Both the position numbers and the translations under genes were made by a program. DNA of 64,000 nt, taken from positions 62,001 through 126,000 of the forward strand of contig BCGN01000003.1 of NCBI GenBank assembly GCA_001599295.1, in the 5' to 3' direction. This document shows positions 31,449 through 53,137 of the stretch, one piece after another. The notes under the pieces were generated by a model. That model made no database searches, had not been told where the DNA came from, and was given only the letters and a program-made list of their open reading frames with translations. This stretch comes from Sporopachydermia quercuum. Its lineage: Eukaryota. The first letter of the stretch is position 1. Each line of letters opens with the position of its first letter.

Positions 31449-33515
<2,067 letters not shown>

Positions 33516-34794
33516 ATAAAGAGAAAATGTGAGAACAATGAAAGTTGAAATGGGTGTATTTATTGATAAATAATGTTTATAATGTTTATTGAACATATTG
33601 AATGAAAAAGCCTGTTTTTGTAGGATATTTGAAAGAGGTGGAATGTGGGAATGTAAGTGGGATGCAATGGTAAGGCACTTGTAGCTGGTCTTCTGAAATT
33701 AGGTTTGTAGTTCTAATGCTAAAGGTTCAAAATGAAAGAAGGTAGAGGTGATATAATTCACTGGAGTTAGAGATGAAACAAGACTTTAATGCATGTGCTG
33801 ATGCAATACCTTCCATTGTATATGATTCTAGCTTGCATTTCATCTTTATTTCGTAGAAAAGAAATAATCAAGTTATTCATAGATCATTGGGAGAGATATC
33901 CACAGCTACAAATACCATTCAAGGTTCATAAGATTGTGATAAAGATTAGGGTTTACTAATAAACTCTGCTAATCCGAACTTTAATTACTCATTCACTGAC
34001 TCTCGAGTCTTTAATTCTTCTGTAGCTTTAGTTGTTCATTATTCATACATTCACTCTTTCTTTTCAATAATCAGTTGATAATTTTATAATATTCCGCTTT
34101 ACATTTCCACAATTTTACAGACCATGAAATGAAATGAATAGTTCTAGCTACATTCTTTGTTTTTATTCTCTCTTTAAAGAACACTTTCAATAGATAGAAT
34201 CTTAACTACAATCTTCAATTGCGTAGAGCATCTCAAACCTCAGATAGAATTCTTTATATAGAAAATAGATATAGAATATAGAATATATTACAACAAACAA
34301 GCTAGGCAGACAGTTACTTATTGGAACATCATTGTTGATGAATGAGAGGCATTTGTCTGATTTACTGTTGATTGGATTGATCTACTAACAGTACTGTTTG
34401 CTTTCAAGCAGTGGACACAAATTGGTTAATTCTAATTAGTAATTTAAATTATAAAATAAATTGAATGTGGCGGAAATTGAAAGAAAAGAAATTGGAGCCA
34501 AGTTTGGCAATTGAGCTGAACAGTTGGATCACGTTACACATACACCATAGTAGAANTTTCCTACTCTTACAATTCTTATCAATGAACATGCATTAGTTGC
34601 CAATTTCCCAATAGTCCGTTACCATTGATGTACGTTTCGGCATGAAAATCTTCACTTTACTTTGACAGACTAATCACTAACACAGTAACTTATTTATTCT
34701 AATGTAAATCAGTTGACTTTCCTTACTTTTCATATATTTTAATCTCTCAATCCTCCATTTCTTTCATTTCTCCATCGATGATTCATTCATCCAC

Positions 34795-35262
34795 CTAATT
34801 ATTTAAAGCTTCTTTCATTGGTGAGACATCTAAATATACTTGATAAAAGGCCAACTTCAGATCATCATCTTTAACACTTTCCCAGGATTCAACAGCTTCA
34901 AAGACCATATGAGAACTCCATTCGGTTACTAATTTCTTCCCATTTATCAAATCATATTCAACATACCCATGAAGCATTATATCCTGTACCTTGTCCGATG
35001 GATTGGAGAAAGTGAACACTTTTTCAACTACGTGATGTCGGGTAGTTACAGATTTCCAAATATTTTGTCGGACAATTGCAATATTGGCAGAGTCTTTAAC
35101 GGTAGATAAACCCATTTTCAGAGTGGCATTTTCGGTGAAGAAGGAAACATAAGGATCAGGAGAAGCAGTTGGCAGAGGTGGCTTAGTATCACTTTGTTTG
35201 AAGAAGCGAACAATGAAGGTTTTTACTGCTTGGTTGTTATAGGAAGAGTTGAATAAAGTCAT
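34795..35262 (-). CDS. SnoaL/NTF2-like fold protein of unknown function, 155 aa
   Basis: FF..SD, YVSFFTENATLKMG, RHHVVEKVF, MLHGYVEY and FYQVYLD resemble small fungal SnoaL-like proteins; embedded in the catabolic cluster. Confidence 0.75.
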   Translation of the reverse strand: MTLFNSSYNNQAVKTFIVRFFKQSDTKPPLPTASPDPYVSFFTENATLKMGLSTVKDSANIAIVRQNIWKSVTTRHHVVEKVFTFSNPSDKVQDIMLHGYVEYDLINGKKLVTEWSSHMVFEAVESWESVKDDDLKLAFYQVYLDVSPMKEALNN

Positions 35263-35748
35263 TGTGTGTAGGTAAGAACTGATCGGATAATTGGTAATTG
35301 ATGGTTTTGTTTCTGGTGATGAATTTAAGATAGAAGAATGTGTGAATAAAAGTAGACTGTTGCCAATTGAAGTGCATTTATTTTGATTAATTATTGAGGG
35401 AAGGCATGATAAAAAGAAAAGGAGAGCTGGAGGAGAAAAAAGATAAAGGGGATAACAGAGGGTTCAGTTGGAAGATAGAGATGAATAAAACGGGACTTGT
35501 TCAACAGAATGTCACTTATCCGATACAGAGATGAAGACCAATTTGGTACAAGAAACCCAATAAGCTCCCTAGAAAATCGCTACCATGCTCTATATCCGGC
35601 ACAAATCTCATACTGTGTCACACATCCGGGGAGATTGTTTAAAACCCGTAATGGGACAGTATACGCTCCCAACGGTACCAGGACATTACAAGCTGATACA
35701 ACAGTACTAATCCTATCACTTTTTCACTTCTTTCATTTTAAATACTAT

Positions 35749-36678
35749 TTATAAACTATCAATAAAATCAACAATCAATTCAGCTACTTTCTCAGGACTC
35801 TCGATGCAATGCCAATGTCCAACTTTAGGTAAAACCTGCACCTTGGTGTCTCTTATCCGATCAGCAATCACATTCACACATCCTTCCCACGGAGCACTCT
35901 TATCTTCTTCCCCAGCTATAATAAGCACTTTATTAACAATTTGATCGTAGTTAGGAATAGTTGCTCTGGCAATAACGTTACACATAGCAATGTAACCTTG
36001 TGGACTAGTACCCGATATAAGCTCTCTAATGAAAGCTTTCTGTACAGATGTAGTATTAGAACCAGTTGCAGCATCAGGAATAGCATCAGCAAGCGTCAAA
36101 ACAGAATTTTCTTTTTTTATTGTTTCAATCCTTGCATCAAAAACTTTTGAAATTGCTTCGGTAGGATGAACAGGTCCAATGAGAACTGAACCACGGGTCC
36201 GAGTCGGGTAGCTGCTAGTTATCTCATTAACTATCATTCCACCCATTGAATGTCCAATAAATATAGCCGTTGATACACCAAACTTATCTAGTACAGCAAT
36301 AGCATCTTTGGCAATGGTTTTGGTGCTTGGGGCATTCTGAGATAAAGGTGATCTTGCGCTACCTTCAGTATCCATTAATATACAATTGGCATGCTTTGTA
36401 AGTGATGATAGTAATCCATAATAGTAGTTCTGTGAAGATCCTAAACCATGGATGAAAAACAAAGTCGGTTTTTCATTATTAATATCAGAAGCTGGTTTCA
36501 CTGAGCCAATTTCCGAATATTGGAATAAAGAGATATTAAGGCTTTTGGAGTTGATTTGTAGAGGCATTGCTGATAGATTCAATGATCGGATAACTATAAG
36601 GCTTTGATTTGAAAGCTTACCACGAACAATTGAATTGAATAGTAATGGAGAATTGATGGAAAATGTTCTGAATATCAT
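35749..36678 (-). CDS. Alpha/beta hydrolase, 3-oxoadipate enol-lactonase / (carboxy)muconolactone hydrolase-like; alternative start at 36567
   Basis: HGLGSSQNYY oxyanion region, GHSMGG nucleophile elbow, AGEEDKS (Asp) and VGHWHCIE (His). Confidence 0.88.
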   Translation of the reverse strand: MIFRTFSINSPLLFNSIVRGKLSNQSLIVIRSLNLSAMPLQINSKSLNISLFQYSEIGSVKPASDINNEKPTLFFIHGLGSSQNYYYGLLSSLTKHANCILMDTEGSARSPLSQNAPSTKTIAKDAIAVLDKFGVSTAIFIGHSMGGMIVNEITSSYPTRTRGSVLIGPVHPTEAISKVFDARIETIKKENSVLTLADAIPDAATGSNTTSVQKAFIRELISGTSPQGYIAMCNVIARATIPNYDQIVNKVLIIAGEEDKSAPWEGCVNVIADRIRDTKVQVLPKVGHWHCIESPEKVAELIVDFIDSL

Positions 36679-37466
36679 GTATTTTGCAGTGATAAAGTAT
36701 ATATAATAAGTGAATAAAGATGAATAGATCGAATAATATTAAGGATTTGCTTAAGAGAAAGAGCATATAAAAAGTTCCGGTCGAGCAGAGAATCGGATAT
36801 CAGTAAATAAACTTGTTGTCGGATATGTGTTGCAAGGAAAGGATAGGAATGCCTTAAAGGGGTATACTGAAGACTCAGGTGAGACGGTAAAAGCGAAAAG
36901 ATTTAACAGTAATTTTTGTTCAATAATCAACTTTTTTTTATTGTTTAAATACGATTGTGAGATGCCATATCAAAGCATCAGTTAAATTGGCCATTCTCAC
37001 GCTCTTGGTTCAGAGAAACCACCATATACTGCGAATACTATGGGGACATCATCGGATGATTGGTTATTTTGATGTCACTCAAATAGAGTTCAAACGTTAA
37101 ATTTGAAATCCAATCCGACACTGAACTGCATTTTCCTCTCAGTAATAAAGTCTTCTCCAGCAGGCTTCTGGTTGATGTCGTCGGATAACTGTCATTTCCA
37201 ATTCTTCAAACTACTTTCTCAATATCTTTGAGAACTTACAGCTTCAATTATATCATATGCTTCTGATTCAAATGATAGAACAATTCATAAAATCAAGTTT
37301 ACAAAATTTATCTTAAAAGATTCCTTCAAGGATTTTTCAATACTATAAACCTATACTCAAGCTTCGTAATACAGTATTCATACATTTCATTCATCCGTCT
37401 AGCCATACGCCGTAAGCCANTCTGTTTTCCAATCCAATTTTTATTTAAGATCAGATCAAGAAGCAC

Positions 37467-38384
37467 TCAATCCTGGAATTCACCATCTACTTCCTTTTGC
37501 AATTGATATAATCTGGCTCTTTCTTTCAGGACCTCAGCTTCTGTTGTCAANCGAATGTCATAATCAACAACATAAATGATACCCTTTTCCTTCAATTCAG
37601 TGTCCTTTTCCCCCACAGGAACAAAATCTAATACCAGATCATTCTTAACACCATGAACAGCATCGTCTTTAGTATAAGGATCTTCACGATTATAAATTTG
37701 AGTAACCAATGAATGATATTCGGGATAAGTTGCTCTGAAATGAATATGAGAAGGTCTCATCGGATGNCTGTCCATAAATTGTAATAGATCACCAGCAGGC
37801 CCATCATAAGGAATAGGATAAGCAGTGGGTTTCAGGCAAATAAAAGAAAACTTTCCTTCAGAATCAGTAACGAAGGTTCCTCTTAAATTATAATCTGGTT
37901 GATCAGGATCCTGTTGTTCGTACAATCCATTTGGAGCACAGTGCCATGCCTCTAATTGAGCTCCAACTAACGGATTACCTAAAGTATCAGTTATTCTACC
38001 CTTGAACAATGTCTTCTCACCACCAACATCCTTTTGAATGATNGATTCGCCATTTTCATATCTAGGAGAGTTTGGTCTATAAAAGGGACCTAAAATTGCA
38101 GATTTTGTATGATCTGAGTGTTCTAATTCATGAGTAAGGGTGTCAACTAGAGCTTCAAGCCCTAATACATCAGATACGAGAATACCTTCGTTTCTTCGCG
38201 AATCTGACATTTGTCCAATTCTGTTGATGAAATTCACTCCCCATAACCAATCATCTGTCGTAATATAATTTTCGCGACTGAAGTCATGGATATGTTGGAT
38301 CAAGGACCGTAAGATTCTTTTAGCTCTTGGGGTAGCTTTGGGACCAAAAGAGTCTTTTACAGACTCAGTGAATTCTTGAGACAT
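37467..38384 (-). CDS. Intradiol ring-cleavage dioxygenase (catechol 1,2- / fungal protocatechuate 3,4-dioxygenase type, Hqd2-like)
   Basis: First ATG at 38384 (MSQEFTESVK), AILGPFY, and Fe ligands in GLYEQQ, PTAYPIP and MRPSHIHF. Confidence 0.93.
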   Translation of the reverse strand: MSQEFTESVKDSFGPKATPRAKRILRSLIQHIHDFSRENYITTDDWLWGVNFINRIGQMSDSRRNEGILVSDVLGLEALVDTLTHELEHSDHTKSAILGPFYRPNSPRYENGEXIIQKDVGGEKTLFKGRITDTLGNPLVGAQLEAWHCAPNGLYEQQDPDQPDYNLRGTFVTDSEGKFSFICLKPTAYPIPYDGPAGDLLQFMDXHPMRPSHIHFRATYPEYHSLVTQIYNREDPYTKDDAVHGVKNDLVLDFVPVGEKDTELKEKGIIYVVDYDIXLTTEAEVLKERARLYQLQKEVDGEFQD

Positions 38385-40313
38385 TATTAAAAGTTTTAGA
38401 TTGTTGATTGAGCAAATTTTGTTAGGTAACTGAATCAGGTTTAGTTGTTCAACCGAAGCTATCAATAGTAGATAGTAGATGAACTAGAGTAACTGAAGAC
38501 TGATTGAAGAGGGAACAACAGGTTTAAATAGTTGAATTAGTTATGATTAGAAGAAGAGAAATAAGTAACAGGAAATAATGGCATGATTTCAATTATTTAA
38601 AACAGATTACTAGCGAAAGAATACAATTCAATAGGAGGAAATAACATAGATTATGAAAGATACGTTCGGGGCAGATGATATTTTATTTGCTTGGGGGGAA
38701 AGCAAGATAATTAAGGTTTCACACATATTATGAAGAGAAGGTTAAAGTATAAGGTATAAAGTTTGTGGAGGGTGATTGCTAAGTTAGAGGTAAGGTTTAG
38801 AGCGATTCTTAACTTCAAAGCTAAGCAATTCTGACATTCACAATTGTCAGAATGGGGCTGACATACGTACGGGGAAACAATCTGGGGAAAGTACGGCTGT
38901 AGTCTATGTATGGGAGAATAAATACTAACTAAACGGTCTCCGACGTCGGGTGTTGGTATTAATATTTGTAGCTTGTCTCGTCTTGGAAAAAAACATTGTT
39001 AAGAACAGTTGAGGATCACATAACAATAGTTAGAACAAGTTGGTAAACAGCATATCATGAGTATGATATTTTCAATTACTTAGACATCTGTTTGTCGTAT
39101 TTAGGGATGATTTGTCAGAATCGTGAGCAAATGACAAAGAAGTTGTATGTCATGAGTGAGTTTCTTCAGTACAAGTAAGACATAGAGTATATATCTTAAT
39201 AATTTTCTCATCCTATGTGCTTTTAACACCCTTATTTTCATAATCAGAGTAATCGAGTTAAGCAGTAATTATTTCAAAGTAATTTATCAGAGAAAAGATT
39301 CTAAATGTCACAATAGTCTTAGTATTGTTCATGTGGTTATTACATTCTAACATGACATATTATTTATTCTTCAATGTCAGTATGTCACATTTTATAGAGA
39401 ACAAGAAAGAATATTTTCATGTCCTGTGCCCCACAAAATAAATATAAAGTGCAACCCGACAAAGACACACACTATTCCATCTTCTCACTTGGAAGATTTC
39501 TACTGATATTGCTCTAACGATATTGACTACAATTGGATTAAAGAGCTATTTACCTATGTGACCAATTGTTTTAGTGGTAATAACTGAGCTCTTTCTCTAT
39601 GATGGCGAGTTAATGATTTGTATCATTCCGAGAAAAAGAATCCTTTAGTAAGATAATAAGGTTTCGGATATGCACCAGATTAATTAAAATTCATCGGAAG
39701 TCTGTATCTGCAAATTTAATCCTCTTTCTTCATACCAGAACACAACTACCAACTCCACAAATTGATTGGCGATATATTCACACTCAAATTGATGCCTTTC
39801 ATAAGAAACTGTCAAATATTATACGCTTCAACTGTAGCGTAATTGTTTATAATGCCATTCTGTTTGAACTGCTTTGCCGAATGCTACAAATGAAATCAAA
39901 CCTGAACATAAAAACCCAATCCGTGAATATACTTCGTGTATACTATCTGATTCTTATCCGACAAACTACCTTACCACTTGCCTTATCCGATAACCCATAG
40001 CTTCCTGTCTCTTCCGACACTTTTTTCCCTCTCAACAACCACTTTTCTCTTTCACCTTATTAGCGTTCTCTTCTTCCTTGGTCATTTTACAACTACAAGT
40101 ACTGGTCTCTTACCGTCCTCTCTTAAATAACACTATTTTCCATTTTCTCCCTTCATTTTTCTTTTGCTCTAAGCAATTCTATTCGTATAATCCACCAAAC
40201 TGACCCTGAATCCACAAAAGAGTATTCGGATGTGTGTCATAGGTCATTGCAGAAACGAAAAACGCATCATATCAGACATTCAAAGTCAGACTGAAAAACA
40301 CGCTTCTATCATT

Positions 40314-42101
40314 ATGACAGTCGATTCTCCTAAATACTCACAATTATCTGAAGCAGAACGGATCCTTGATCTCTTATTATCTAACCAGAATTTACCAATA
40401 CCTTCGGAAGCTCGAGATCTCGCCAGAGATGTCCAATTCTACCTACCAGAACCTCCAGCAGGTATCAGCAACGCTTCTGTTAAGAACTCCGAAATCATAG
40501 TCCCGGTGCCTTTAAAAGAAGCCGAAGCTGTTTCCGCTTTGAAAGCCATTGAAGGCTCTGTTGCAAACCTAATCGGGAAACTTCGGTTCGGCCCTGATTA
40601 CCAATCAGATATCAAAATCGATCTTCAACATGCCCTTATGTTCCTTTTTATGGCTTATATCGCTTCCGTTAATGGTTACACGAAAGCGGATAAAGAAGAG
40701 GTCAAGAAATACCTCAAAAACACAGATTTATTATCCGCGCAAGCTATAACATATCGTCGGATGAGTGCCAACTTATATAAAACTAAGGATAATCGGTTCT
40801 ATCACATCCACGGTTCATTAGAAGCCACCACTACCCTTAACATGATCGGTTTACCGGGGTACAATGATAAATTAACCGATTATATGGATGTTGTTAATAC
40901 AATTCAAGGCGCGGTTAGTAAATTTGATTGTGATGAGTTGGAAAAGCTCAATTTGAAGCATAGGCAAGCTGGTGTTGAAGCTTTAACTCCGGAAAAGTTT
41001 CGGGAAAGTGCACACGGCAAAGTTATATCCAAGGAACCTTATTGGAGTGTTGATATGCTTGAAAATGAAACTCCGCCTGTGGAATTTCCTGGAATCAACA
41101 GTATCCCGAAGACTCCTACTGGGAAGCCCCAGATTTTAGCAGGCATTAAGGTTCTTGAATTATGCCGGATAATTGCCGGTCCTACAATCGCCCGTATTTT
41201 AGCGGAATACGGAGCGGAAGTGTTGAAAATCACAGGACCCAATCTCTCGGATGTTCCGTTCTTCCAGGTCGACGGGAATATGGGAAAACATTGTGGAGAA
41301 TTGGATTTGAAAACTCCCGAAGGTAAAGCGAAATTCCGAGAGCTTTTGGCTGATGCCGATGTCTTGGTCGACGGATATCGAACCGATGCGATCAAGAAAT
41401 TAGGCTTCGGCCCTGAAGAGCTAGCCGAGCTAGGTAAGAAGCGTGGTAAAGGTTACGTTTACGTCTCTGAGAATTGTTTCGGATTCAAAGGAGAATGGGC
41501 TTTCCGTGCGGGTTGGCAACAAATTGCCGATTGTGTAACCGGTGTGGCTTGGCTGCAAGGTAAGGCATTTGGATTAAACGAACCNATGGTTCCTCCATTC
41601 CCAATGTCGGATTATGGAACCGGATGCATGGGAGCAATTGCGGCAATGGTAGGATTGTATAACCGAGCTACTAAAGGTGGTTCGTATTGGGGGAAAACGT
41701 CATTGGTACAATATGATTTATTATTGTTAGACCAAGGAGAATACCCGGAAGAGGTGTGGAATAAGGTAAAAGAGCTTCACGACCCCGAGATTTTCCGACT
41801 TAGATATTATGACTCAGTTGATAAGATTTCAAGCACGTGTTTAAAAAGCATGAAGAAACTCCGACCCGATTATTTTTCAGGAGACTCTGATTTTTATGAC
41901 GAGAAAGGAGAATTGGTGCCTGAGAAGACTTCAAGTAAGTTTGGAGCTGAAGGTAAGAAGTACATGGAGGAGCATTACGGGGAAGCATTTGGAGCTAATA
42001 TCAAAGTTTTGAAGCCAGTGGTTGAGGCAGATAAAACATGGAATGGATTCTTAGAGGTTAGTAGGACAAATGGCTACGATAAACCAGAATGGTTCAGATA
42101 A
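40314..42101 (+). CDS. CaiB/BaiF family III CoA-transferase-like protein (upstream in-frame ATG at 40230)
   Basis: LAGIKVLELCRIIAGPTIARILAEYGAEVLKI, LDLKTPEGK...LADADVLVDGYR and PPFPMSDYGTG (putative catalytic Asp). Confidence 0.88.
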   Translation: MTVDSPKYSQLSEAERILDLLLSNQNLPIPSEARDLARDVQFYLPEPPAGISNASVKNSEIIVPVPLKEAEAVSALKAIEGSVANLIGKLRFGPDYQSDIKIDLQHALMFLFMAYIASVNGYTKADKEEVKKYLKNTDLLSAQAITYRRMSANLYKTKDNRFYHIHGSLEATTTLNMIGLPGYNDKLTDYMDVVNTIQGAVSKFDCDELEKLNLKHRQAGVEALTPEKFRESAHGKVISKEPYWSVDMLENETPPVEFPGINSIPKTPTGKPQILAGIKVLELCRIIAGPTIARILAEYGAEVLKITGPNLSDVPFFQVDGNMGKHCGELDLKTPEGKAKFRELLADADVLVDGYRTDAIKKLGFGPEELAELGKKRGKGYVYVSENCFGFKGEWAFRAGWQQIADCVTGVAWLQGKAFGLNEXMVPPFPMSDYGTGCMGAIAAMVGLYNRATKGGSYWGKTSLVQYDLLLLDQGEYPEEVWNKVKELHDPEIFRLRYYDSVDKISSTCLKSMKKLRPDYFSGDSDFYDEKGELVPEKTSSKFGAEGKKYMEEHYGEAFGANIKVLKPVVEADKTWNGFLEVSRTNGYDKPEWFR

Positions 42102-42505
42102 AAGAGAGGAGATAATAACGGAGATTTGAAGGAAGTAAGCATGGATCTTATTTCGATCGGAAGTGACAAGAGCAGAATGAAACGGAATTCCAAGGTTTAT
42201 GAATTAGATTTCAGTTCAATTTTTGCATGGATTTTATAAACAACAAACTAACTTGAAATATATATTATCTATTTGTTCATATACATTTCAATTCTGAATG
42301 TATCTTATGCTAGCTTATTATCGTATTATATCATTAATGATTTTTATGGATTGAACTATGATTTTCTCGCTTACCATACAATAACCTTATTTATAGTTTA
42401 TAATTTACAAACTTTATTTATCAATCTCNGTATTAAGCAAAGTTTATATAAATCTAAACCGACAAACTTTAAGTTATGCTATTTTTTTCTTCTATTTTCC
42501 TGTCC

Positions 42506-44071
42506 CTAAATGTCATAAGGCTTTAGATTATCTGATACAACAAAATCAGCTTCAGTCTTAGCTTTAACTTCTTCAACGCTTGTTGATGGATCAATCTCAA
42601 TCAATGTTAATCCGTTTTCAAAATCCACGTCAAATACTGCTAAATCAGTGATAATTCTTGATACACATTGCTTTCCTGTTAATGGGAATGAACATTGCTT
42701 AAGAATCTTTGGATTGCCCTTCTTATCAGTATGATCCATCACAATAACAACTCTCATCTTTGTAGGATTTGAAACTAGATCCATAGCTCCTCCCATACCT
42801 TTAACTTTACCTGGTAATGCCCAGTTGGCTAAATCACCATATTGAGAAACTTGCATTGCTCCAAGTATTGTTAAATCAATTCTACCAGATCTGATCATTG
42901 CAAATGATTCTTCTGAACCGAAAACTGAACCATTCTTGTTCAAAGTGACGGTTTCCTTACCCGCATTAATCAAATCAGGATCTTCTTCGCCTGGTTTAGG
43001 ATATGGTCCCATACCTAGAATACCGTTTTCTGATTGTAAGGTGATTTCCATACTTGATGGTAAGAAGCCGGGAGCTAAAGTAGGCATACCGATACCTAGA
43101 TTGGCATATCCGCCATCTTTGAACTCTTTTGCTGCTCTTCTCACAATTCTTTCTCTTCTTAAATCAGATTCTGACTTAGATTTGGATTCACCAGTAGCTG
43201 CGGTTTCGGCCTTGTGATCTTCCGGAGCGGAGTTCTTGACAATCTCAATATTCTTTGGCGTAGTTGATTGAACAACACCAGTAACATAAATTCCAGGCAA
43301 ATGAACATCTTCAGGTGGAATTTCACCTTGTTCAACAATATTCTCGGCTTCCACAATTGTTATTTTGCCGGCTCTACCCATAGCAGAGTTGAAGTTTCGG
43401 GAGGACCCTCTAAACCAACAGTTACCAAAAGTGTCAGCTTTATAAGCTTTAACAAATGCAACATCACCAACGATTGCTTCTTCTAATAAAAACTTTCTAC
43501 CATTAAATTCTCGTACTTCTCTTGGTTTGCTATGCTTAATTACTTTGCCTTCGGAATCATATTTAACAGGTAATTGTCCTTCTTCTAACCAAGTACCAAC
43601 ACCAGTAGGGGTATAGAAAGCAGGCACACCAGCACCAGCAGCTCTGATTCTTTCAGCAATTGTTCCTTGTGGAGTTAATTCCAATTCGATTTTACCTTGT
43701 AGATAGCACTGTTCGAACACTTTGTTCATTCCGATATATGAAGCAATCATCTTGGTGATTTGACCAGTTTTTAACAGCTTACTTAGGCCAGAATCAGCAG
43801 TGCCAGCATTATTTGAAACAGCGCAAATATTGTGAACTTTCCCTTGTCTTTCTAATTCATTGATTAGAGTATCTGGGACACCAGATAAACCAAATCCACC
43901 AGACAATAATGTTATATCCTTTTGTGGCACTTTTGCAAGGGCTTCTTCCACTGTCATTACTTTTGATCTAGCAGCAGAAGCAATTGATACTGAAAAGGCT
44001 CTAACCACAATTCTTGCAGTTGTTTTTGATATCCCAACGGGGATCACCCGAGGATTCACCGAGAAAATCAT
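42506..44071 (-). CDS. 3-oxoacid (3-oxoadipate):succinyl-CoA transferase, fused A/B subunits, mitochondrial presequence (Osc1/SCOT-like)
   Basis: First ATG at 44071 (44092 is TTG). LLSGGFGLSGVP, ELTPQGTIAERIRAAGAG, NLGIGMP, catalytic SENG and KGMGGAMDL. Confidence 0.92.
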   Translation of the reverse strand: MIFSVNPRVIPVGISKTTARIVVRAFSVSIASAARSKVMTVEEALAKVPQKDITLLSGGFGLSGVPDTLINELERQGKVHNICAVSNNAGTADSGLSKLLKTGQITKMIASYIGMNKVFEQCYLQGKIELELTPQGTIAERIRAAGAGVPAFYTPTGVGTWLEEGQLPVKYDSEGKVIKHSKPREVREFNGRKFLLEEAIVGDVAFVKAYKADTFGNCWFRGSSRNFNSAMGRAGKITIVEAENIVEQGEIPPEDVHLPGIYVTGVVQSTTPKNIEIVKNSAPEDHKAETAATGESKSKSESDLRRERIVRRAAKEFKDGGYANLGIGMPTLAPGFLPSSMEITLQSENGILGMGPYPKPGEEDPDLINAGKETVTLNKNGSVFGSEESFAMIRSGRIDLTILGAMQVSQYGDLANWALPGKVKGMGGAMDLVSNPTKMRVVIVMDHTDKKGNPKILKQCSFPLTGKQCVSRIITDLAVFDVDFENGLTLIEIDPSTSVEEVKAKTEADFVVSDNLKPYDI

Positions 44072-44512
44072 TTTTCTTCTGCTGATATCCAAATGATCTG
44101 TTAGATAGTAACGGTATCGGGAGATAAGCGAACTATGAATAGAGTGAACTAACTATAAGACAAGAAAGAAGAATATAAGTTAAGTTATAAGGTAAATAGT
44201 GAATAGTATAGATGTAAGAAGGATATGAGGAAGAAATAAGTATGAAAAATAAGTAGTAAGGAAAAAAGAAGGAGGGAAGAAAAAGAGAGTATGAATAGCA
44301 AGTAAGTATCAATTCCCCGGATTTTGAAACTTTTCACTATAAAATGCGGTCCGAAGAATCCCAATAAAGGTAGAATAAGGCCCCCTATTTTGGATGATTA
44401 TTCCGAGTTTTTCCTACTAAATAGGAACTATCAACCACAATGCTGTTAATGATGGAAAAAAAGATAGGATCAGTAGCCATAATATGGTAAACAAGTGGAA
44501 AATCTGTTATAC

Positions 44513-44569
44513 TTATCCGATGAAAGCTGTCGGATAACTGATACACCGGAAAATGGTGGTGTCGGATAA
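44513..44569. promoter_or_regulatory. Candidate Zn2Cys6 binding element: TTATCCGA-N9-TCGGATAA plus a third TCGGATAA
   Basis: Sites at 44513-44520, 44530-44537 and 44562-44569 in the divergent CoA-transferase/thiolase promoter. Confidence 0.65.
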
Positions 44570-45658: not shown

Positions 45659-46903
45659 ATGTCCGGCCTACAAAAAATCCTTAAAAAATCCGCTTCCGAC
45701 GTGGTGATCCTTTCCGCCCTCAGAACTCCAATCACCAAAGCAAAGAAAGGTGGCTTGGCAAACATGTACCCCGAGGAATTGGTCCACACAGTTCTCAAAG
45801 CCACACTTGATAAAACGGGAATCAAACCTAGTGAAGTAAACGAAGTAATGGTTGGCGCAGTTCTTCAAAAACTATGTGGACATAAAGTATCAGCAACAGC
45901 CGTAAAGCATTCGGGATTCCCTATTTCGACCACTGTTTCTCAGATCAACCGTCAATGTTCTTCTTCCGCTCAAGCTGTGGCGTCATTAGCCGGGGCTATG
46001 GCTTTAGGTTCTGTGAGAACGGGAATTGCCGTTGGTGTTGAGTCCATGACTATGGATTATTTCCCACATCGAGGTATTCCTGAAAGGATGTCACCCGCTT
46101 TAAAGAATTCGCCAATTGATGATGCTCGAAACGTTGTTATGCCTATGGGTATTACATCCGAGAATGTGGCCGAGAAGTTTGGAATCACCCGAGCTCAGCA
46201 AGACGAATTCGCCTACAATTCCCATTTGAAGGCCGCCAAATCCCGGTCCTCTGGGCATTTCGCTAAAGAAATCGTCCCAGTAAACGCCCGATATTTCGAC
46301 GACATCGGAGAAACAAACGCTGAAACTTCTGACAAGGAATCAATTGAGAAGTTCCGAGAAATCGCCGAAGATGACGGAATAAGACCTACAATTTCTATAG
46401 AAAAACTCTCTTCTCTGTCCGGGGCTTTCAAAGAAAACGGAACCACAACAGCAGGTAACTCTTCTCAAGTCTCCGACGGTGCCGCTGCTGTTTTAGTCAC
46501 TACCCGGGAAAACGCCGAAAGCCTCGGAATCGTCCCAATCGGGAAATTCGTCGGATATCAAGTTTCTGGAGTTCCTTCTGATTTGATGGGAATTGCTCCT
46601 TCTGTCGCTATCCCTGATTTACTTCAAAGATTCAATCTGTCCACTTCCGATGTTGATATTTGGGAGTTAAATGAAGCCTTTGCTTCCCAATCTGTTTATT
46701 GTATTAATAAATTAGGCCTCCCACTAGAAAAAGTAAATCCTTTCGGTGGCGCAATTGCCATTGGTCATCCTTTGGGCGCCACAGGTGCCAGATGTATAGC
46801 TACATTGATGAATGGNTTAGAAGCTACTGGGGGCAAAGTTGGTGTTGTGTCTATGTGTGCATCTACGGGACAGGGATTTGCTGGGTTATTTGTGAGAGAA
46901 TAA
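45659..46903 (+). CDS. Thiolase, probable 3-oxoadipyl-CoA thiolase (Oct1-like)
   Basis: INRQCSSS (catalytic Cys), TTAGNSSQVSDGAAA, NEAFA, GHPLGATG and MCASTGQG; cluster context. Confidence 0.9.
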   Translation: MSGLQKILKKSASDVVILSALRTPITKAKKGGLANMYPEELVHTVLKATLDKTGIKPSEVNEVMVGAVLQKLCGHKVSATAVKHSGFPISTTVSQINRQCSSSAQAVASLAGAMALGSVRTGIAVGVESMTMDYFPHRGIPERMSPALKNSPIDDARNVVMPMGITSENVAEKFGITRAQQDEFAYNSHLKAAKSRSSGHFAKEIVPVNARYFDDIGETNAETSDKESIEKFREIAEDDGIRPTISIEKLSSLSGAFKENGTTTAGNSSQVSDGAAAVLVTTRENAESLGIVPIGKFVGYQVSGVPSDLMGIAPSVAIPDLLQRFNLSTSDVDIWELNEAFASQSVYCINKLGLPLEKVNPFGGAIAIGHPLGATGARCIATLMNXLEATGGKVGVVSMCASTGQGFAGLFVRE

Positions 46904-47448: not shown

Positions 47449-50400
47449 CTAAAANCCTTGCCCTATTAGCATACCTCGGAAAACATCCTCTTTATCCCCG
47501 CTTTCCAACTGTAGTGAAAAGTTCAAATTAAACGCATCATACACAAAGATCTCATTATCTATTCCGTTCCCAGTTTCCAAACCGGAAAAAACATCAGCAG
47601 GAGCTTCAGCAGCATCTTCCTCATTGGTAAATCCGGTCGAGGATGTGCTTTCAATAGTGCGGGGACCTTGCAGATATGGAGGCGTATTAGTGCTGGTAGT
47701 ATTCGAAGTGTTCCTTGGATAAAAGGGGCTAAAATGAGGGGCACGCGGGGCATTAAGAGCCATTGAAGAGTGATGAGGTTGGGCTGGTGATTTTGGTTGT
47801 AATTGTTGTAGTGTATTACCTAAGTAAGGAAATCCTTGCTGTGAACTCAGTGTTGAGTATTTATCTGACTGAGTAACCGAATTGCGAGGTAAATTACCCA
47901 AATTGGAATTTGTGTTTTCAGCTTGTTCTATTTGTCCCACCTCCGAATCTACCCCGCTTATTTCTCCGTTTCGTTGCAACCATCGGTCGAAATCAAGAAA
48001 ACTCGCGGGGTAGATTGACACCTTGTTATTAGAGGTCAGTGGGGTAGCGGAACCTAAACAACTAAGGTTCAAATACGAGTCAGAATTAATCTTCAAGTTT
48101 GCATTTGTATTTGCATTTGTGTTCCGTTCTGTTCCGGATGGGGAAGCAACGGTATTCATAGTTTCATTACGAATATCGGAGACTCTTGCTGCTGCTTGCC
48201 CCACTATGTTTGTTCCAAAATTGAGCATATGAGTATCCATATCAAGTAGCCCGTTGGCGGGGTCATTTTGATTGCTTTGCTGCTTTGCACCACCTACCTC
48301 TGTCCTAGTTGCGATCCCAGTTCCGGTTCCGCTCGAATTACCCAATTTAGCTTCTTCTAGATACTTTATCGGATTTCCGATTCCTAATGCAGAACACAAT
48401 CGGGTCAAAATGTCACCATATCTCCGAGCNGAGGCGTCTTCGGAACCTAATTCTCCTAATATGCAAGCTACCGCGCATAATGCGTCGTTTATACATATGT
48501 CTTTTTGAGGGTGGAGATGTAAAGCTTGTAAGCCGAGGATAATCCCGCAATTAAATGCATAGTAAATGAGCAAATGCGGGCGGCGGGGTTTTTGGTACTC
48601 ATTTTTGCCGTACATGTGATCGACTAGCTGAACCGATAGTAATGCCGACTGTACGCAAGCTTGCAGAAACGAATCAAAAACCTTGATTGCCGATAACACG
48701 TAGCGGGAATTAGACGAATTAGCCAAATTCATCGAGGCAGCCGAGGCTGCCGTTTGAGGCGCAGAAGAGTTGGTCCTGCTGCTAGCCCCATTTAGAGCAT
48801 TCAGGTTAGTGTGACTCTTGCTGGGTAGCAAAGAGGGCAAATCCAAAGACCTGGAGATCACGTAATAAAAAAATGGCCGGGACAGTAAAATTACTCCGTG
48901 AAGATGCGCTAAATGGATGCGCAGAACCGCCATTTGGATAGTCTGGGGTACACGTTTAAGTTTTGTGATTCCAATCTGATGCGAAGTAGTAAGATGAGTA
49001 TTGGTTTGCGTACTACGGAATGGTGACACTTCAGGATTTACCCCGCCGTTTGCCCCACTTCCGGCTCCAGTTTCTGTACCATTTATTCCGGTTCCGGTTC
49101 CTCCTGTGAGATCTCCGGCGATCTTCGTTGGCAATAAACTCTCAACTCGGAATTCCTCGGGAAGTCCCTCGGACCAATTTTTGAGTTTCAGCGCTAAAAC
49201 CCGGGCATGGTTTGAACTTAATCTCCCCTTCCGATAAACGTGCCGAGAAATATCCCCAAGAATTCGGCATATCCGAACTAATTGGATGGAAATGCTGTCT
49301 TCATATTGCTCCACTACGGATTCGGAAAGCGGTTCAAATGAAGCTTCGGAGGAGGGGAAAAGCCAGGGGAGATGTGGTGTAGCAAGCGGGGTACTTAGTG
49401 GGGTTGAATCTTTGATATCTTTTGTGCTCTGACTTAAATTGCCCGAAATAGCTGAATTTGTCCGATTTTCCCGGTTTTCACTACCACTTCCACTTCCACT
49501 TCCGCTTCCACTTCCGCTTCCACTTCCGCTTCCACTTCCGCTTCCACTTCCGCTTCCACTTCCATTTCCATTTCCATTTCCGTTTCCCGTCCCACTTTCT
49601 CCCACATCTCCTCCTGTAGCCCCCCCAATAGCTCCTGTTCCTGTAGCTCCCGGCCCGTCATCCCATTCCTCGTCACTAATACTAAATGGCCTTCCTACGG
49701 ACAACGAAAATAACCGATCACTCACATACAAACTGCGCCACAGTTTCCTCCGATGCGTACATTCTTCCTTTCGAAATGCCACATTTACCGCCTTCCGAGA
49801 TAACCCTAAAGCTTGTCCGTACCGGATAGCTATTCCGAGGTTAAGCCACGCGGCATTTCGTTTGCACACTGATTGATAAAACAGGAACACTAATAAATAA
49901 GCTTGGACGACCCACAGGTTTCCGTTTTCCGCGTACTCGGCTAAAATTCCCAAAGCGGATTGGAAGAAAAGCCCGGGAGAAATACCCGATTGGGCAAACT
50001 TTTGGAATTTCTCCGGAATGTGATCCGATTTGATAAATACAGTTCCGATTGCGAATACTAAATGGATTAAACAAAGCTTACTTTTAGAAGCTCCCAACGG
50101 GTTCAAGTAGAGTTCCGAGATTTCATTCCGAAGCCAAGACATTCGGAAGACATAAGTGTAGGAATTGATGTTTGTACGGAAAGACTCTGTAAGAATATCT
50201 GCGATTTCCCGCGCCGGTAACTGTGCCACTGTAATACTAGGCGAATACCCGGGAGCATCTACCAGGTTGAACCTTCCGGGATCTTCCGTGAATTCCGACA
50301 CTCCGAGCTTTCGCAAGAAAAGGTTTCGACATTGGGCCAAAAGGGATAAAACAGAAGTCTCCCCAATATACCGGAGATTCCCCGAGGTGTCGTGAAGTAA

Positions 50401-51153
50401 GCGGGAATTTTTCCCGTCTTTCACGGGTTCCACTTCGTAGTCGATTTCTTCGGAAGCGGAGGCGAAAGTTGAAGGGTGTGATTGGGAAAGTTGGAGGGTG
50501 TGATTGTGTGATTGTGGCTCTGGTGGTAACTGTGGCGCTGACTCATTCTGTGGGTCATTTAACACAGAGGCCAAATCATTGTTTTTCCTTTTCCTTTTCC
50601 GTTTTTGTTCATTTGGAGCATANATCGCATTGGGAGATTCCGAGATTATTTCCGATATCTTCCCCGAAATAGTCTCCGACGTTGTCTCCGTCATAGTTTC
50701 CGATATTGTTCCCATATTCTTATTCACGTCTTTCATAGTTTGCGGTTCATCCTCATTAACCAAAGACTGTACTGGGTTTGCCCTACTGTTTGACCCACCT
50801 ACCCCTCCCCCGCGTTTTGAACCGTTACGAATCGAGTATTCACATGTAAATCCCTTCCGACTGCATATTTTGCACGGCAATTGTCCGTCACACTTCTGCT
50901 TCCGCTTCTTACACGAATTACAAGCATAAGCCACCCGTTTCCGCTTCGACTCATCTACTATTCGGCGCCGCCTTTTCGCAGCGGCTGAGGTAGAGGGGTT
51001 GGCAGGGTAGGTTGAATTTGTAGTGCTAGTATTAGTATTAGCGTCAGAATTTGCCGCGGAATAGAACTCCTTGTTGGGGTTTATTGGAACAGGAGTTGTA
51101 TTTTGAGGAGGTAAAATGGGATTTGAGGCATCGAAACCAGGATGCGAAGGCAT
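47449..51153 (-). CDS. Zn(II)2Cys6 fungal transcription factor with a fungal-TF middle homology region; probable cluster regulator
   Basis: ACNSCKKRKQKCDGQLPCKICSRKGFTC, RRKLWRSLYVSDRLFSLSVGRP and an acidic/hydrophobic C-terminus. Confidence 0.92.
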   Translation of the reverse strand: MPSHPGFDASNPILPPQNTTPVPINPNKEFYSAANSDANTNTSTTNSTYPANPSTSAAAKRRRRIVDESKRKRVAYACNSCKKRKQKCDGQLPCKICSRKGFTCEYSIRNGSKRGGGVGGSNSRANPVQSLVNEDEPQTMKDVNKNMGTISETMTETTSETISGKISEIISESPNAXYAPNEQKRKRKRKNNDLASVLNDPQNESAPQLPPEPQSHNHTLQLSQSHPSTFASASEEIDYEVEPVKDGKNSRLLHDTSGNLRYIGETSVLSLLAQCRNLFLRKLGVSEFTEDPGRFNLVDAPGYSPSITVAQLPAREIADILTESFRTNINSYTYVFRMSWLRNEISELYLNPLGASKSKLCLIHLVFAIGTVFIKSDHIPEKFQKFAQSGISPGLFFQSALGILAEYAENGNLWVVQAYLLVFLFYQSVCKRNAAWLNLGIAIRYGQALGLSRKAVNVAFRKEECTHRRKLWRSLYVSDRLFSLSVGRPFSISDEEWDDGPGATGTGAIGGATGGDVGESGTGNGNGNGNGSGSGSGSGSGSGSGSGSGSGSGSGSGSENRENRTNSAISGNLSQSTKDIKDSTPLSTPLATPHLPWLFPSSEASFEPLSESVVEQYEDSISIQLVRICRILGDISRHVYRKGRLSSNHARVLALKLKNWSEGLPEEFRVESLLPTKIAGDLTGGTGTGINGTETGAGSGANGGVNPEVSPFRSTQTNTHLTTSHQIGITKLKRVPQTIQMAVLRIHLAHLHGVILLSRPFFYYVISRSLDLPSLLPSKSHTNLNALNGASSRTNSSAPQTAASAASMNLANSSNSRYVLSAIKVFDSFLQACVQSALLSVQLVDHMYGKNEYQKPRRPHLLIYYAFNCGIILGLQALHLHPQKDICINDALCAVACILGELGSEDAXARRYGDILTRLCSALGIGNPIKYLEEAKLGNSSGTGTGIATRTEVGGAKQQSNQNDPANGLLDMDTHMLNFGTNIVGQAAARVSDIRNETMNTVASPSGTERNTNANTNANLKINSDSYLNLSCLGSATPLTSNNKVSIYPASFLDFDRWLQRNGEISGVDSEVGQIEQAENTNSNLGNLPRNSVTQSDKYSTLSSQQGFPYLGNTLQQLQPKSPAQPHHSSMALNAPRAPHFSPFYPRNTSNTTSTNTPPYLQGPRTIESTSSTGFTNEEDAAEAPADVFSGLETGNGIDNEIFVYDAFNLNFSLQLESGDKEDVFRGMLIGQXF
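49481..49590 (-). repeat. Coding hexamer repeat encoding (GN)n(GS)n inside the transcription factor
   Basis: (CTTCCA/CTTCCG)n on the plus strand, translating as GNGNGNGNGSGSGSGS... Confidence 0.9.
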
Positions 51154-52458: not shown

Positions 52459-53137
52459 TTACAAAATAACACACTTCTTCTTCTTCTTCTTTTCTGGCTT
52501 TGCCTTCTTTTGCTTTCCCAACAATGCGACTCTAGTGGCTTCTTCAAAAACTTCTCGTACACCNTCACCTGTTTTAGCAGAACATTCCATATATCTAACA
52601 GCGCCAATTTTTTCAGCCATAGATTGACCTTCATCTTGCCTAATTGGAGTTTGAGAAATCTTGTTAAGTTCTTCAATAGTGTAAGGATCATTTCTTAAGT
52701 CAACTTTACAACCAACTAAGATGATTGGTACACCTGAACAGAAATGCAATACCTCTGGGTACCATTTTTCTTGAACGTTATCCAAAGAATCAGGTAAATC
52801 AATAGCAAAACAAATCAAAATCACATTTGAATCTGGGTACGATAAAGGTCGAAGTCTGTCGTAATCTTCTTGTCCAGCTGTATCCCATAAAGCCAAGTCG
52901 ACTACTTTACCATCAACTTGAACATCAGCAACGTAGTTTTCAAATACTGTTGGTACATAGACTTCAGGAAAGGTTCCTTTAGCAAAAACGCTTTAAATAT
53001 GTTAATTGATTAACTCTAATACGTTTTACTTTCATTGTACTTTCTTCTCATCATCATTGTACTTACATCAACAAACATGTTTTACCACAAGCACCATCTC
53101 CCACAATCACAAGTTTTCGTCGTAAATCAGCTTGCAT
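52459..53137 (-). CDS. RHO1: Rho1 GTPase, 200 aa; complement(join(52459..52990,53067..53137))
   Basis: [43 protein letters not shown]...[17 protein letters not shown]...[16 protein letters not shown] donor at 53066, AAG acceptor at 52991. Confidence 0.93.

What the first reader, a model, noticed from the sequence alone, without database searches (positions are those of the whole stretch)
40230..42101. Family III CoA-transferase where a muconate cycloisomerase is expected: candidate non-canonical (possibly CoA-dependent) lactonisation step
Seen: the cluster has ring cleavage and lactone hydrolysis genes, but no enolase-family or beta-propeller cycloisomerase and no maleylacetate reductase. The CaiB/BaiF gene shares a divergent promoter with the dioxygenase and keeps the presumptive catalytic Asp (PMSDYGTG). 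The SCOT-type gene already covers 3-oxoadipate activation, so a second CoA-transferase is unexplained. Inference: it acts on cis,cis-muconate, carboxymuconate or a lactone, perhaps through a CoA thioester. I recall, unverified, that Aspergillus genetics tied a CaiB/BaiF protein to muconate conversion.
Basis: partly seen in the sequence, partly recalled or inferred. Interest (0 to 1): 0.8.

Follow-up and report, generated by a model that had tools for sequence, protein, structure and literature searches.

The report
Fungal CoA-transferase-like muconate cycloisomerase gene
This yeast gene belongs to a fungal enzyme family that has the fold of a CoA-transferase and is already assigned in print to ring-closing cis,cis-muconate during catechol breakdown, so its role is known, but how it works chemically has not been tested.

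Summary
ORF 40230-42101(+) carries a family III CoA-transferase domain and keeps the family's catalytic Asp. It sits in a full catechol-branch 3-oxoadipate cluster. None of the 25 window ORFs scanned is an enolase-type or beta-propeller cycloisomerase or a maleylacetate reductase.

The functional idea is already published. [quoted passage not shown] A review reports that deleting AN3895 gives cis,cis-muconic acid on salicylate. The window's gene falls in the orthologous fungal clade (51-59% identity, and the tree follows fungal taxonomy). I file it as a new member of a known kind.

- The likely start is ATG 40314, giving 595 aa.
- The protein has two lobes. Residues ~264-595 are a whole family III fold (Z 20-24). 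Residues 1-260 fold alone into a second, degenerate family III-like fold (Z 6.9-9.1), with no sequence similarity left.
- The Asp and the conserved family III core motifs are invariant in 46 of 46 sequences. The racemase-type His is Trp.
- The motif TTATCCGA marks the cluster's promoters, this gene's included.

Whether the reaction needs CoA remains open. I found no biochemistry in the held literature.

The parts
40314..42101 (+). Likely true coding region of the MCI1/AN3895-type protein (595 aa plus stop). The ORF as listed starts 84 nt upstream, at 40230.
   Evidence: Eight fetched homologues of 545-586 aa start at or near the second Met, for example C. subhashii P0035. Homologues cover 94-96% of the 623-aa ORF. 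The N at 41585 is the third base of a CCN codon, so the residue is Pro whatever the base.
40314..41093 (+). N-terminal lobe (residues 1-260): a degenerate second family III-like fold. It carries the family-invariant motifs YRRMSANLY and HIHGSL.
   Evidence: No PDB sequence match at E up to 10. Folded alone, mean pLDDT is 88. The top 7 VIA hits are the 7 family III representatives (Z 9.1-6.9, 197-205 residues aligned, rmsd 7.2-7.9 A); the next, unrelated hit has Z 4.5. Foldseek gives 47 hits at E<=1e-3, and all those listed are family III. hhalign of the N half against the C half gives probability 0.4%. Invariant residues are listed.
41103..42098 (+). C-terminal lobe (residues ~264-595): a whole family III CoA-transferase fold with the catalytic-type Asp433 (codon 41610-41612).
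   Evidence: Pfam PF02515. AF2 model of the whole protein: pLDDT 90.8, pTM 0.92. VIA gives Z 23.6-20.3 to Rv3272, 4ed9, BbsEF, CaiB, Frc, AMACR and Mct, with 256-269 residues aligned and model range 264/272 to 593/595. Asp alignment.
39954..39990 (+). Two copies of TTATCCGA, 324-360 nt upstream of ATG 40314: a candidate regulator site shared with the rest of the cluster.
   Evidence: 12 matches in the window against 2.28 expected (largest of 100 shuffles: 7). 11 of the 12 lie between 30420 and 44569. Flanks are shown.
37467..38384 (-). Catechol 1,2-dioxygenase (HQD2/CDX1-like), divergent from the gene. The likely ATG is at 38384; the listed ORF begins at a TTG at 38465.
   Evidence: Pfam Dioxygenase_C and Dioxygenase_N. 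Best NCBIfam matches are catechol and chlorocatechol 1,2-dioxygenases, all below their bacterial cut-offs.
34795..35262 (-). SnoaL/NTF2-like 155-aa protein: candidate muconolactone isomerase (MLI1/AN4061 type).
   Evidence: No Pfam or NCBIfam hit. The nearest Atlas clusters are fungal 'SnoaL-like domain-containing protein' (score 0.96). FAMeDB lists MLI1 and AN4061 as SnoaL-like, NTF2-like muconolactone isomerases.
35749..36678 (-). Alpha/beta hydrolase: candidate 3-oxoadipate enol-lactonase (OEL1 type).
   Evidence: Pfam Abhydrolase_1. Best NCBIfam match is TIGR02427, 3-oxoadipate enol-lactonase, at 122.7 bits, below the bacterial cut-off of 255.85.
42506..44092 (-). Fused SCOT-type 3-oxoacid CoA-transferase (OSC1 type).
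   Evidence: Pfam CoA_trans, two stretches. NCBIfam pcaJ/scoB and pcaI/scoA subfamilies, both above cut-off.
45659..46903 (+). Thiolase (OCT1 type).
   Evidence: Pfam Thiolase_N and Thiolase_C. NCBIfam acetyl-CoA C-acyltransferase above cut-off; 3-oxoadipyl-CoA thiolase models match below cut-off.
31449..33515 (+). Phenol 2-monooxygenase (PHH type).
   Evidence: Pfam FAD_binding_3 and Phe_hydrox_dim. NCBIfam phenol 2-monooxygenase at 519.8 bits, cut-off 560.
47449..51153 (-). Zn2Cys6 transcription factor (ZCF25-like by position).
   Evidence: Pfam Zn_clus and Fungal_trans. ZCF25 is the regulator of the C. albicans catechol cluster (PMC12625712). Orthology was not tested here.

Best explanation
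The gene (most likely 40314-42101, 595 aa) is this yeast's ortholog of the ascomycete 'cis,cis-muconate cycloisomerase' known as MCI1 in Candida albicans and AN3895 in Aspergillus nidulans.

Its place in the cluster's pathway would be:
1. phenol to catechol (PHH)
2. catechol to cis,cis-muconate (dioxygenase)
3. cis,cis-muconate to muconolactone (this protein)
4. muconolactone to 3-oxoadipate enol-lactone (NTF2-like isomerase)
5. enol-lactone to 3-oxoadipate (alpha/beta hydrolase)
6. 3-oxoadipate to 3-oxoadipyl-CoA (SCOT)
7. 3-oxoadipyl-CoA to acetyl-CoA plus succinyl-CoA (thiolase)

Shown here: family, fold, invariant residues, cluster context and orthologous placement. Taken from print: the role at the muconate step.

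Inferred only, at my odds of about 45%: the lactonisation runs on a thioester. Asp433 would move CoA from a primer or from the previous product (muconolactonyl-CoA) onto muconate. The C1 carboxylate would add to C4, the beta-carbon of the now activated C4=C5-C6(=O)-SCoA unit. The CoA would then pass to the next muconate, so the net reaction uses no CoA.

Also inferred: the N-terminal lobe, a degenerate second family III fold, stands in for the second subunit of the usual interlocked dimer and supplies substrate-binding residues (R148, R149, H164, H166).
For: Family and fold. PF02515 scores well above its cut-off. The whole family III fold is recovered for residues ~264-595 at Z 20-24.

Conserved residues. 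Asp433 aligns with the catalytic Asp of solved members and is invariant in 46 of 46 sequences. So are the family III core motifs CRxxAGP, N.GK, DGYR and G..G....R.G.

Orthology. 921 proteins match at E<=1e-3; of the 120 listed, every row that carries a name is a fungus and 37 rows are unnamed. Identity is 48-59% over 94-96% of the ORF for most rows. In a 54-row tree the query sits in a 33-row clade (SH-aLRT 98) that follows fungal taxonomy. It is sister (96) to the Babjeviella/Ascoidea/Scheffersomyces/Candida group. 21 of the 22 distant representatives (29-43% identical) fall outside that clade; the other, P0125, falls inside it on a long branch, among the Aspergillus/Rasamsonia rows.

Published role. 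[quoted passage not shown] Deletion of AN3895 gives cis,cis-muconic acid (PMC12388069). The C. albicans catechol cluster is HQD2-ZCF25-OEL1-MLI1-MCI1 (PMC8311171 supplement), and the window holds the same set.

Co-regulation hint. TTATCCGA occurs 12 times against 2.28 expected. 11 of the 12 lie in the cluster, two of them upstream of this gene.

For the thioester idea only. From general knowledge, every characterised family III member acts on acyl-CoA. The core motifs are under strong constraint here.
Against: Reference sequences.

Primary papers. Martins 2015 and Gerecova 2015 are not held (for the latter). I know their results only through citing papers and a database table.

Biochemistry. 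I found no in-vitro assay of any member.

Redundancy. [quoted passage not shown] The step may therefore be redundant.

Genome. No whole genome is held, so a canonical cycloisomerase elsewhere cannot be excluded.

Against the thioester idea:
- The A. nidulans mutants are reported with free muconolactone and free enol-lactone.
- The cluster keeps a SCOT, so 3-oxoadipate is a free acid.
- The GDxxR stretch of many CoA-transferases is replaced by SDVPFFQ.
- All NCBIfam family III equivalogs score far below cut-off, the best being 70 bits against 750.
- The conserved motifs may be kept for the fold alone.
Confidence: 0.8

Rival explanations
1. The protein is the muconate cycloisomerase but works without CoA. 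The family III scaffold has been re-used, and Asp433 (perhaps with H164 and H166 of the N lobe) acts as a general acid/base that protonates C5 while Arg residues hold the two carboxylates.
For: Free-acid intermediates are reported in the A. nidulans mutants. The GDxxR stretch is lost and only profile positions 1-187 of 366 match Pfam. No NCBIfam equivalog is approached. AMACR shows that the same Asp can act as an acid/base rather than a nucleophile (PDB titles for the H126A and D156A mutants). The large, invariant N-lobe motifs point to a new substrate site.
Against: To my knowledge no family III member is known to work without an acyl-CoA. The core motifs that surround the CoA site in relatives are invariant in 46 of 46 sequences. 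The AMACR His partner is Trp here, so the racemase-type acid/base pair is not kept.
Confidence: 0.3
2. It is an ordinary intermolecular CoA-transferase for some other acid, for example one that activates muconate, muconolactone or a side product for a different route. The true lactonising enzyme would be elsewhere in the genome.
For: Family III membership with an intact Asp. No genome is available to exclude a canonical cycloisomerase. Redundancy in muconate metabolism is suggested in A. nidulans.
[quoted passage not shown] Cluster-specific TTATCCGA sites lie upstream. The SCOT already covers the known CoA-transfer step.
Confidence: 0.1
3. It is an AMACR-like racemase or isomerase acting on a CoA ester, for example shifting a double bond or inverting a centre in a lactone-CoA.
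For: M. tuberculosis AMACR is among the best sequence and fold matches (59 bits; Z 20.7). The VPP...D.G.G stretch resembles AMACR's.
Against: AMACR His126 aligns with an invariant Trp (W401). No acyl-CoA ligase or other source of such a CoA ester is in the cluster. The cluster has its own NTF2-like isomerase candidate.
Confidence: 0.05

Closest known systems
[quoted passage not shown]
   Same: Same Pfam/InterPro family. The gene set matches the C. albicans catechol cluster (HQD2, OEL1, MLI1, a Zn2Cys6 regulator). The window's protein sits in the clade that holds the C. maltosa, C. tropicalis and C. subhashii proteins and the Aspergillus 'CAIB/BAIF family enzyme' proteins.
   Different: The two reference sequences were not compared directly. 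In the window the SCOT, the thiolase and a phenol hydroxylase lie in the same cluster; in C. albicans OSC1, POT1-2 and PHH1 lie elsewhere. The window's protein has an insertion near residues 524-547, which is low-confidence in the model.
CaiB (crotonobetainyl-CoA:carnitine CoA-transferase) working with CaiD in E. coli carnitine metabolism
   Same: Family III fold (Z 22.1). From general knowledge, the CaiB/CaiD pair carries out an addition to an alpha,beta-unsaturated acid at the CoA-ester level while CoA is cycled between product and substrate. That is the logic proposed here.
   Different: No crotonase-type partner is in the cluster. The addition here would be intramolecular (carboxylate to C4). 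The sequence match is weak (E 6.5e-06). CoA cycling is not shown for the fungal enzyme.
Alpha-methylacyl-CoA racemase (M. tuberculosis MCR)
   Same: Family III fold without transferase chemistry. The Asp aligns, and the surrounding VPP...D.G.G stretch is similar.
   Different: His126 of MCR aligns with an invariant Trp. MCR has no extra N-terminal lobe.
Mesaconyl-CoA C1:C4 intramolecular CoA-transferase (Chloroflexus and Roseiflexus Mct)
   Same: A family III enzyme whose net reaction is an isomerisation with CoA kept on the enzyme (PDB titles). Fold match Z 20.3.
   Different: Its substrate is already a CoA ester. Here both the net substrate and the net product are thought to be free acids.
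Bacterial muconate cycloisomerase CatB (enolase superfamily) and the fungal beta-propeller cycloisomerases (CMLE type)
   Same: Same assigned net reaction: cis,cis-muconate or carboxymuconate to a lactone.
   Different: Unrelated folds. At E<=0.01 the protein hits only PF02515. FAMeDB lists the beta-propeller type for Basidiomycota yeasts.

Membership tests
CoA-transferase family III (Pfam PF02515) | Match to the family profile above the curated cut-off | tested here: met
   128.7 bits against 23.3, but only profile positions 1-187 of 366 are matched.
CoA-transferase family III (Pfam PF02515) | The family's fold over the whole domain | tested here: met
   Predicted model (pLDDT 90.8). Z 20.3-23.6 to seven solved members, with 256-269 residues aligned across model residues 264/272-593/595. 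This is a prediction, not a solved structure.
CoA-transferase family III (Pfam PF02515) | Catalytic Asp at the conserved position | tested here: met
   D433 aligns with the Asp of 10uh, 4ed9, SUGCT and AMACR. It is invariant in 46 of 46 sequences.
CoA-transferase family III (Pfam PF02515) | Interlocked homodimer | not testable with these tools
The N lobe may replace the partner subunit; this is inference.
CoA-transferase family III (Pfam PF02515) | Binds or uses an acyl-CoA | not testable with these tools
   Only conservation of the core motifs is available. No assay was found in print.
Ascomycete MCI1/AN3895 muconate cycloisomerase group | Orthology to the two reference proteins | tested here: inconclusive
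   The tree places the query in the clade with Candida and Aspergillus relatives and follows taxonomy. Q5AMS5 and Q5B6D5 themselves could not be fetched.
Ascomycete MCI1/AN3895 muconate cycloisomerase group | Architecture of about 545-595 aa: a conserved N lobe followed by a family III domain | tested here: met
   Full-length alignment with 45 homologues, with invariant residues in both lobes.
Ascomycete MCI1/AN3895 muconate cycloisomerase group | Clustered with catechol 1,2-dioxygenase, an NTF2-like isomerase and an enol-lactonase | tested here: met
   compared with the C. albicans cluster list.
Ascomycete MCI1/AN3895 muconate cycloisomerase group | Loss of the gene leads to cis,cis-muconate accumulation | not testable with these tools
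   Reported for AN3895 in a review. Not tested in this organism.
Enolase-superfamily muconate cycloisomerase (MR_MLE) | MR_MLE N- and C-terminal domains | tested here: not met
   No such Pfam hit for this protein at E<=0.01, nor for the other 24 window ORFs scanned.
Beta-propeller cycloisomerase (CMLE / 7-bladed lactonase) | Lactonase 7-bladed propeller domain | tested here: not met
   No such Pfam hit for this protein or the other scanned ORFs.
Alpha-methylacyl-CoA racemase | His/Asp acid-base pair (His126/Asp156 in MCR) | tested here: not met
   The Asp is kept. The His position is an invariant Trp, W401.

The most novel reading that the evidence does not exclude
The enzyme is the first family III CoA-transferase that achieves a CoA-neutral cycloisomerisation. 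It makes muconyl-CoA by CoA transfer, closes the lactone by an intramolecular oxa-Michael addition on the activated thioester, and hands the CoA to the next muconate. It does this as a single-chain pseudo-dimer whose degenerate N-terminal copy replaces the partner subunit. This would also explain why no in-vitro activity of the pure protein turned up in my searches: it would need a catalytic acyl-CoA primer.
Probability: 0.4. Interest if true: 0.75.

Novelty: new member of a known kind. Interest (0 to 1): 0.4.

Why it matters
As a discovery of function, the finding is therefore ordinary.

What remains worth attention is the chemistry. Three unrelated folds now do muconate lactonisation: the enolase type, the beta-propeller type and the family III type. 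For the third, the held literature shows no mechanism, cofactor requirement or structure. If the reaction runs on a transient CoA thioester, it would be a new reaction type for family III.

There is a practical side as well. This is the step one would block to make cis,cis-muconic acid in yeasts and moulds.

The predicted two-lobed, internally duplicated architecture gives concrete residues to mutate: D433, W401, R148/R149 and H164/H166.

Tried and rejected
A second homologue search with the C. maltosa protein listed no named C. albicans row. An unnamed 165-member cluster, P0272, 78% identical to C. maltosa, may be it.
- Gerecova 2015 is not held. Martins 2015 was not requested and is known only through citations.
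- Literature on a mechanism: 'caib'+'muconate'+'aspergillus' gave 0 papers. 'muconate'+'CoA-transferase family III' gave 1 unrelated paper. 'muconate'+'caib' gave 4 bacterial papers. A five-term search gave 8 papers, none with biochemistry of the fungal enzyme.
- Three papers had no relevant passages: PMC12366324, PMC9204233 and PMC10832562.
- Internal duplication by sequence: hhalign of the N half against the C half gave probability 0.4%, E 0.14. The duplication is seen only in predicted structure.
- PDB sequence search with the N lobe: 0 hits at E up to 10.
- Zn2Cys6-type CGG/CCG paired sites shared by the cluster promoters: none reached 3 occurrences. One palindrome, CCGACGTCGG, lies at 38940.
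- CUG reassignment: the single CTG codon in the gene falls at a variable column (A, I, E...), which is not diagnostic.
- Earlier findings of this scan: nothing on this genome or on this sequence.
- Complex prediction was not used. Two copies exceed its size limit, and the two halves of one chain would pass trivially.


Full report
**What is there.** The window is low in G+C (about 32-49% in 2-kb windows, mostly 33-43%). It is gene-sparse, and its ORFs have fungal-type domains such as Zn2Cys6 regulators, Med10 and ribosomal protein S8e. It carries 78 isolated N bases. Its only Pfam family is CoA_transf_3 (PF02515, 128.7 bits). The match is confined to ORF residues 303-484, which is profile positions 1-187 of 366. 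The eight fetched homologues are 545-586 aa long and begin at the ORF's second Met. The gene therefore most likely starts at 40314 and encodes 595 aa, and residue numbers below use that start. The single N in the gene (41585) is the third base of a CCN codon, so it encodes Pro whatever the base.

**The surroundings.** The neighbours form a complete catechol-branch 3-oxoadipate cluster:
- phenol 2-monooxygenase, 31449-33515 (+)
- a 155-aa protein with no Pfam or NCBIfam hit whose nearest Atlas clusters are fungal SnoaL-like proteins, 34795-35262 (-)
- an alpha/beta hydrolase whose best NCBIfam match is 3-oxoadipate enol-lactonase, 35749-36678 (-)
- an intradiol dioxygenase whose best matches are catechol 1,2-dioxygenases, 37467-38465 (-)
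- the family III gene
- a fused SCOT-type 3-oxoacid CoA-transferase, 42506-44092 (-)
- a thiolase, 45659-46903 (+)
- a Zn2Cys6 regulator, 47449-51153 (-)

These assignments rest. None of the 25 window ORFs scanned (8, 17) belongs to the enolase-type (MR_MLE) or beta-propeller cycloisomerase families, or to the Fe-ADH family of maleylacetate reductases. Short ORFs, overlapping antisense ORFs and split genes were not scanned. No whole genome is held, so this absence holds for the window only.

**The idea is already in print.** The supplement of PMC8311171 lists the C. albicans catechol cluster as HQD2, ZCF25, OEL1, MLI1 and MCI1 (I read part 1 of the file). PMC9046093 names CDX1/HQD2, MCI1, MLI1 and OEL1 as the key catechol-branch enzymes (passages). 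[quoted passage not shown] It describes AN4061 and MLI1 as SnoaL-like, NTF2-like muconolactone isomerases, and it lists a Scedosporium "Caib baif family enzyme" on cluster evidence alone. [quoted passage not shown] 2015. A bioRxiv figure legend also calls AN3895 "muconate cycloisomerase". FAMeDB's main text notes that KEGG tools recognise only 1 of the 4 core catechol-branch enzymes in fungi. This explains why the gene looks out of place to a reader trained on bacterial pathways. I could not read the two primary papers: Gerecova 2015 is not held and Martins 2015 was not requested.

**Is the window's gene the same thing?**
- The homologue search found 921 proteins at E<=1e-3. Of the 120 listed, every row that carries a name is a fungus, 37 rows are unnamed, and most are 48-59% identical over 94-96% of the ORF.
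- A profile-free scan of 1.84 billion representatives found 314 at E<=1e-30.
- A quick maximum-likelihood tree of 54 rows placed the query inside a 33-row clade (SH-aLRT 98). The careful search did not finish. The internal order of that clade follows fungal taxonomy: Pezizomycetes, then other Pezizomycotina including five Aspergillus rows, then Saccharomycotina.
- Within the tree the query is sister (96) to the Babjeviella/Ascoidea/Scheffersomyces/Candida group. 21 of the 22 distant representatives (29-43% identical) fall outside the 33-row clade. The other, P0125, sits inside it on a long branch among the Aspergillus and Rasamsonia rows.

This is the pattern of one vertically inherited orthologue. 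The two reference proteins themselves could not be fetched. The last link to them rests on shared family, shared architecture, names such as "CAIB/BAIF family enzyme", and the matching cluster.

**Anatomy of the protein.** AlphaFold2 with a 46-sequence alignment gave a confident model (mean pLDDT 90.8, pTM 0.92). The weak stretches are residues 1-3, 524-527 and 537-547. Aligned against 48,161 PDB representatives, residues 264/272 to 593/595 match seven family III enzymes at Z 23.6-20.3, with 256-269 residues aligned. The seven are Rv3272, 4ed9, BbsEF, CaiB, formyl-CoA transferase, AMACR and mesaconyl-CoA transferase. The next hit has Z 7.1. The C-terminal lobe is therefore a whole family III domain, although Pfam sees only its first half.

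The N-terminal 260 residues have no PDB sequence match at E up to 10. Folded alone (pLDDT 88), they match the same seven family III representatives and nothing else of note. Z is 9.1-6.9, with 197-205 residues aligned at a high rmsd of 7.2-7.9 A, and the next hit has Z 4.5. Foldseek gives 47 hits at E<=1e-3, and all those listed are family III. Profile-profile comparison of the two halves finds nothing (probability 0.4%).

My reading is an ancient internal duplication in which the N-terminal copy has decayed. This rests on predicted structure only, and the Z values are in the range where single chance matches occur. What makes it credible is that all seven top hits belong to one family. Tandem proteins with two intact PF02515 stretches do exist among the distant relatives, for example P0211, P0212 and P0222. 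Because canonical family III enzymes build their active sites across an interlocked dimer (general knowledge), the N lobe may stand in for the partner subunit. I could not inspect model coordinates, so this is inference.

**Residues.**
- In 46 of 46 sequences the Asp of PPFPxSDYGTGC (D433) is invariant. It aligns with the Asp of four solved relatives. PDB titles confirm that this is the reactive residue in Frc (Asp169, aspartyl anhydride), BbsEF (D178-CoA adduct), Rv3272 (D175A) and AMACR (D156A).
- Also invariant are the motifs that these relatives share around the nucleotide-binding core: CRxxAGP, N.GK, DGYR and G..G....R.G.
- The His that partners the Asp in AMACR (H126) aligns with an invariant Trp, W401, in GWQQIADC. 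The GDxxR stretch of many transferases is replaced by SDVPFFQ.
- The N lobe has its own invariant motifs, including Y147 R148 R149 ... N153 L154 Y155 and H164 x H166 G S L.
- All NCBIfam family III equivalogs score far below their cut-offs, the best being 70 bits against 750.

**How it most likely works.** The role, conversion of cis,cis-muconate to muconolactone, I take from print. The chemistry is open. Lactonisation is the addition of the C1 carboxylate to C4, which is the beta-carbon of the C4=C5-C6 acyl unit. A C6 thioester would activate exactly that carbon. Every characterised family III member acts on acyl-CoA (general knowledge), and the Asp and core motifs are invariant here. I therefore favour, at about 45%, a CoA-cycling route: CoA is transferred onto muconate, the ring closes on the thioester, and CoA is handed to the next muconate, with no net use of CoA. 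This mirrors the CaiB/CaiD logic in carnitine metabolism.

Several points count against it. Free-acid intermediates are reported in the A. nidulans mutants. The cluster retains a SCOT. The GDxxR stretch is lost. The conserved motifs could be structural only. A CoA-independent acid/base mechanism on a re-used scaffold gets about 30%. An unrelated transferase role gets about 10%, and an AMACR-like role about 5%. [quoted passage not shown]

**Regulation, noticed in passing.** TTATCCGA occurs 12 times in the window against 2.28 expected, and the largest count in 100 shuffles was 7. Eleven of the 12 lie between 30420 and 44569. They are upstream of the phenol hydroxylase, the NTF2-like gene, the hydrolase and this gene (39954 and 39983), and in the SCOT/thiolase divergent region. 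This fits co-regulation of the family III gene with the pathway. No RNA data were available.

**Verdict.** The gene is a new member of a known kind. The unresolved and testable part is the mechanism. The new detail offered here is the predicted two-lobed, internally duplicated architecture, with a defined set of invariant residues.

Noticed in passing
window 30420-44569 (sites at 30420, 35283, 35516, 35853, 36586, 37181, 39954, 39983, 44513, 44530, 44562) and 55406: The octamer TTATCCGA occurs 12 times against 2.28 expected by shuffling. 11 of the 12 lie inside the catechol cluster, mostly in promoter regions. It is a candidate binding site for the cluster's Zn2Cys6 regulator. Two sites (35853, 36586) lie inside the listed hydrolase ORF.
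   Followed up: partly
window 36567-36678 (-), 5' end of the hydrolase ORF: The enol-lactonase candidate has a 37-residue N-terminal extension before a second Met. It is rich in R, S and L and has no acidic residue, which resembles a mitochondrial presequence. A TTATCCGA site at 36586 lies inside it, so the true start may instead be the second Met.
   Followed up: no
window 42506-44092 (-): The SCOT-type ORF also begins with a basic, Ser/Arg-rich N-terminus. This fits the mitochondrial location reported for C. parapsilosis Osc1p (PMC5144973). The family III protein has an acidic N-terminus and no obvious targeting signal.
   Followed up: no
whole window: 78 isolated N bases are scattered through the 64 kb (27906-27907 adjacent), several of them inside ORFs, where they appear as X in translations. 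They may be ambiguous or heterozygous positions, or masking.
   Followed up: partly
window 38940-38949: A perfect palindrome, CCGACGTCGG, lies in the dioxygenase/family III intergenic region. It has the form of a Zn2Cys6-type everted CGG pair. It is the only such pair in the region apart from an overlapping CGGTCTCCG.
   Followed up: no
window 52462-52896 (-): A Ras-family ORF matches the Pfam profile only from position 50 onward. The gene probably has an upstream exon (an intron) or a different start.
   Followed up: no
proteins P0211, P0212, P0222 (761-791 aa) and P0206, P0215, P0229, P0270 (about 470 aa): Distant relatives include tandem proteins with two full CoA_transf_3 stretches. They also include ~470-aa proteins with a ~200-residue N-terminal part followed by a half-matched family III domain. 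These may be intermediates in the evolution of the two-lobed fungal architecture. Their taxa are unknown.
   Followed up: partly
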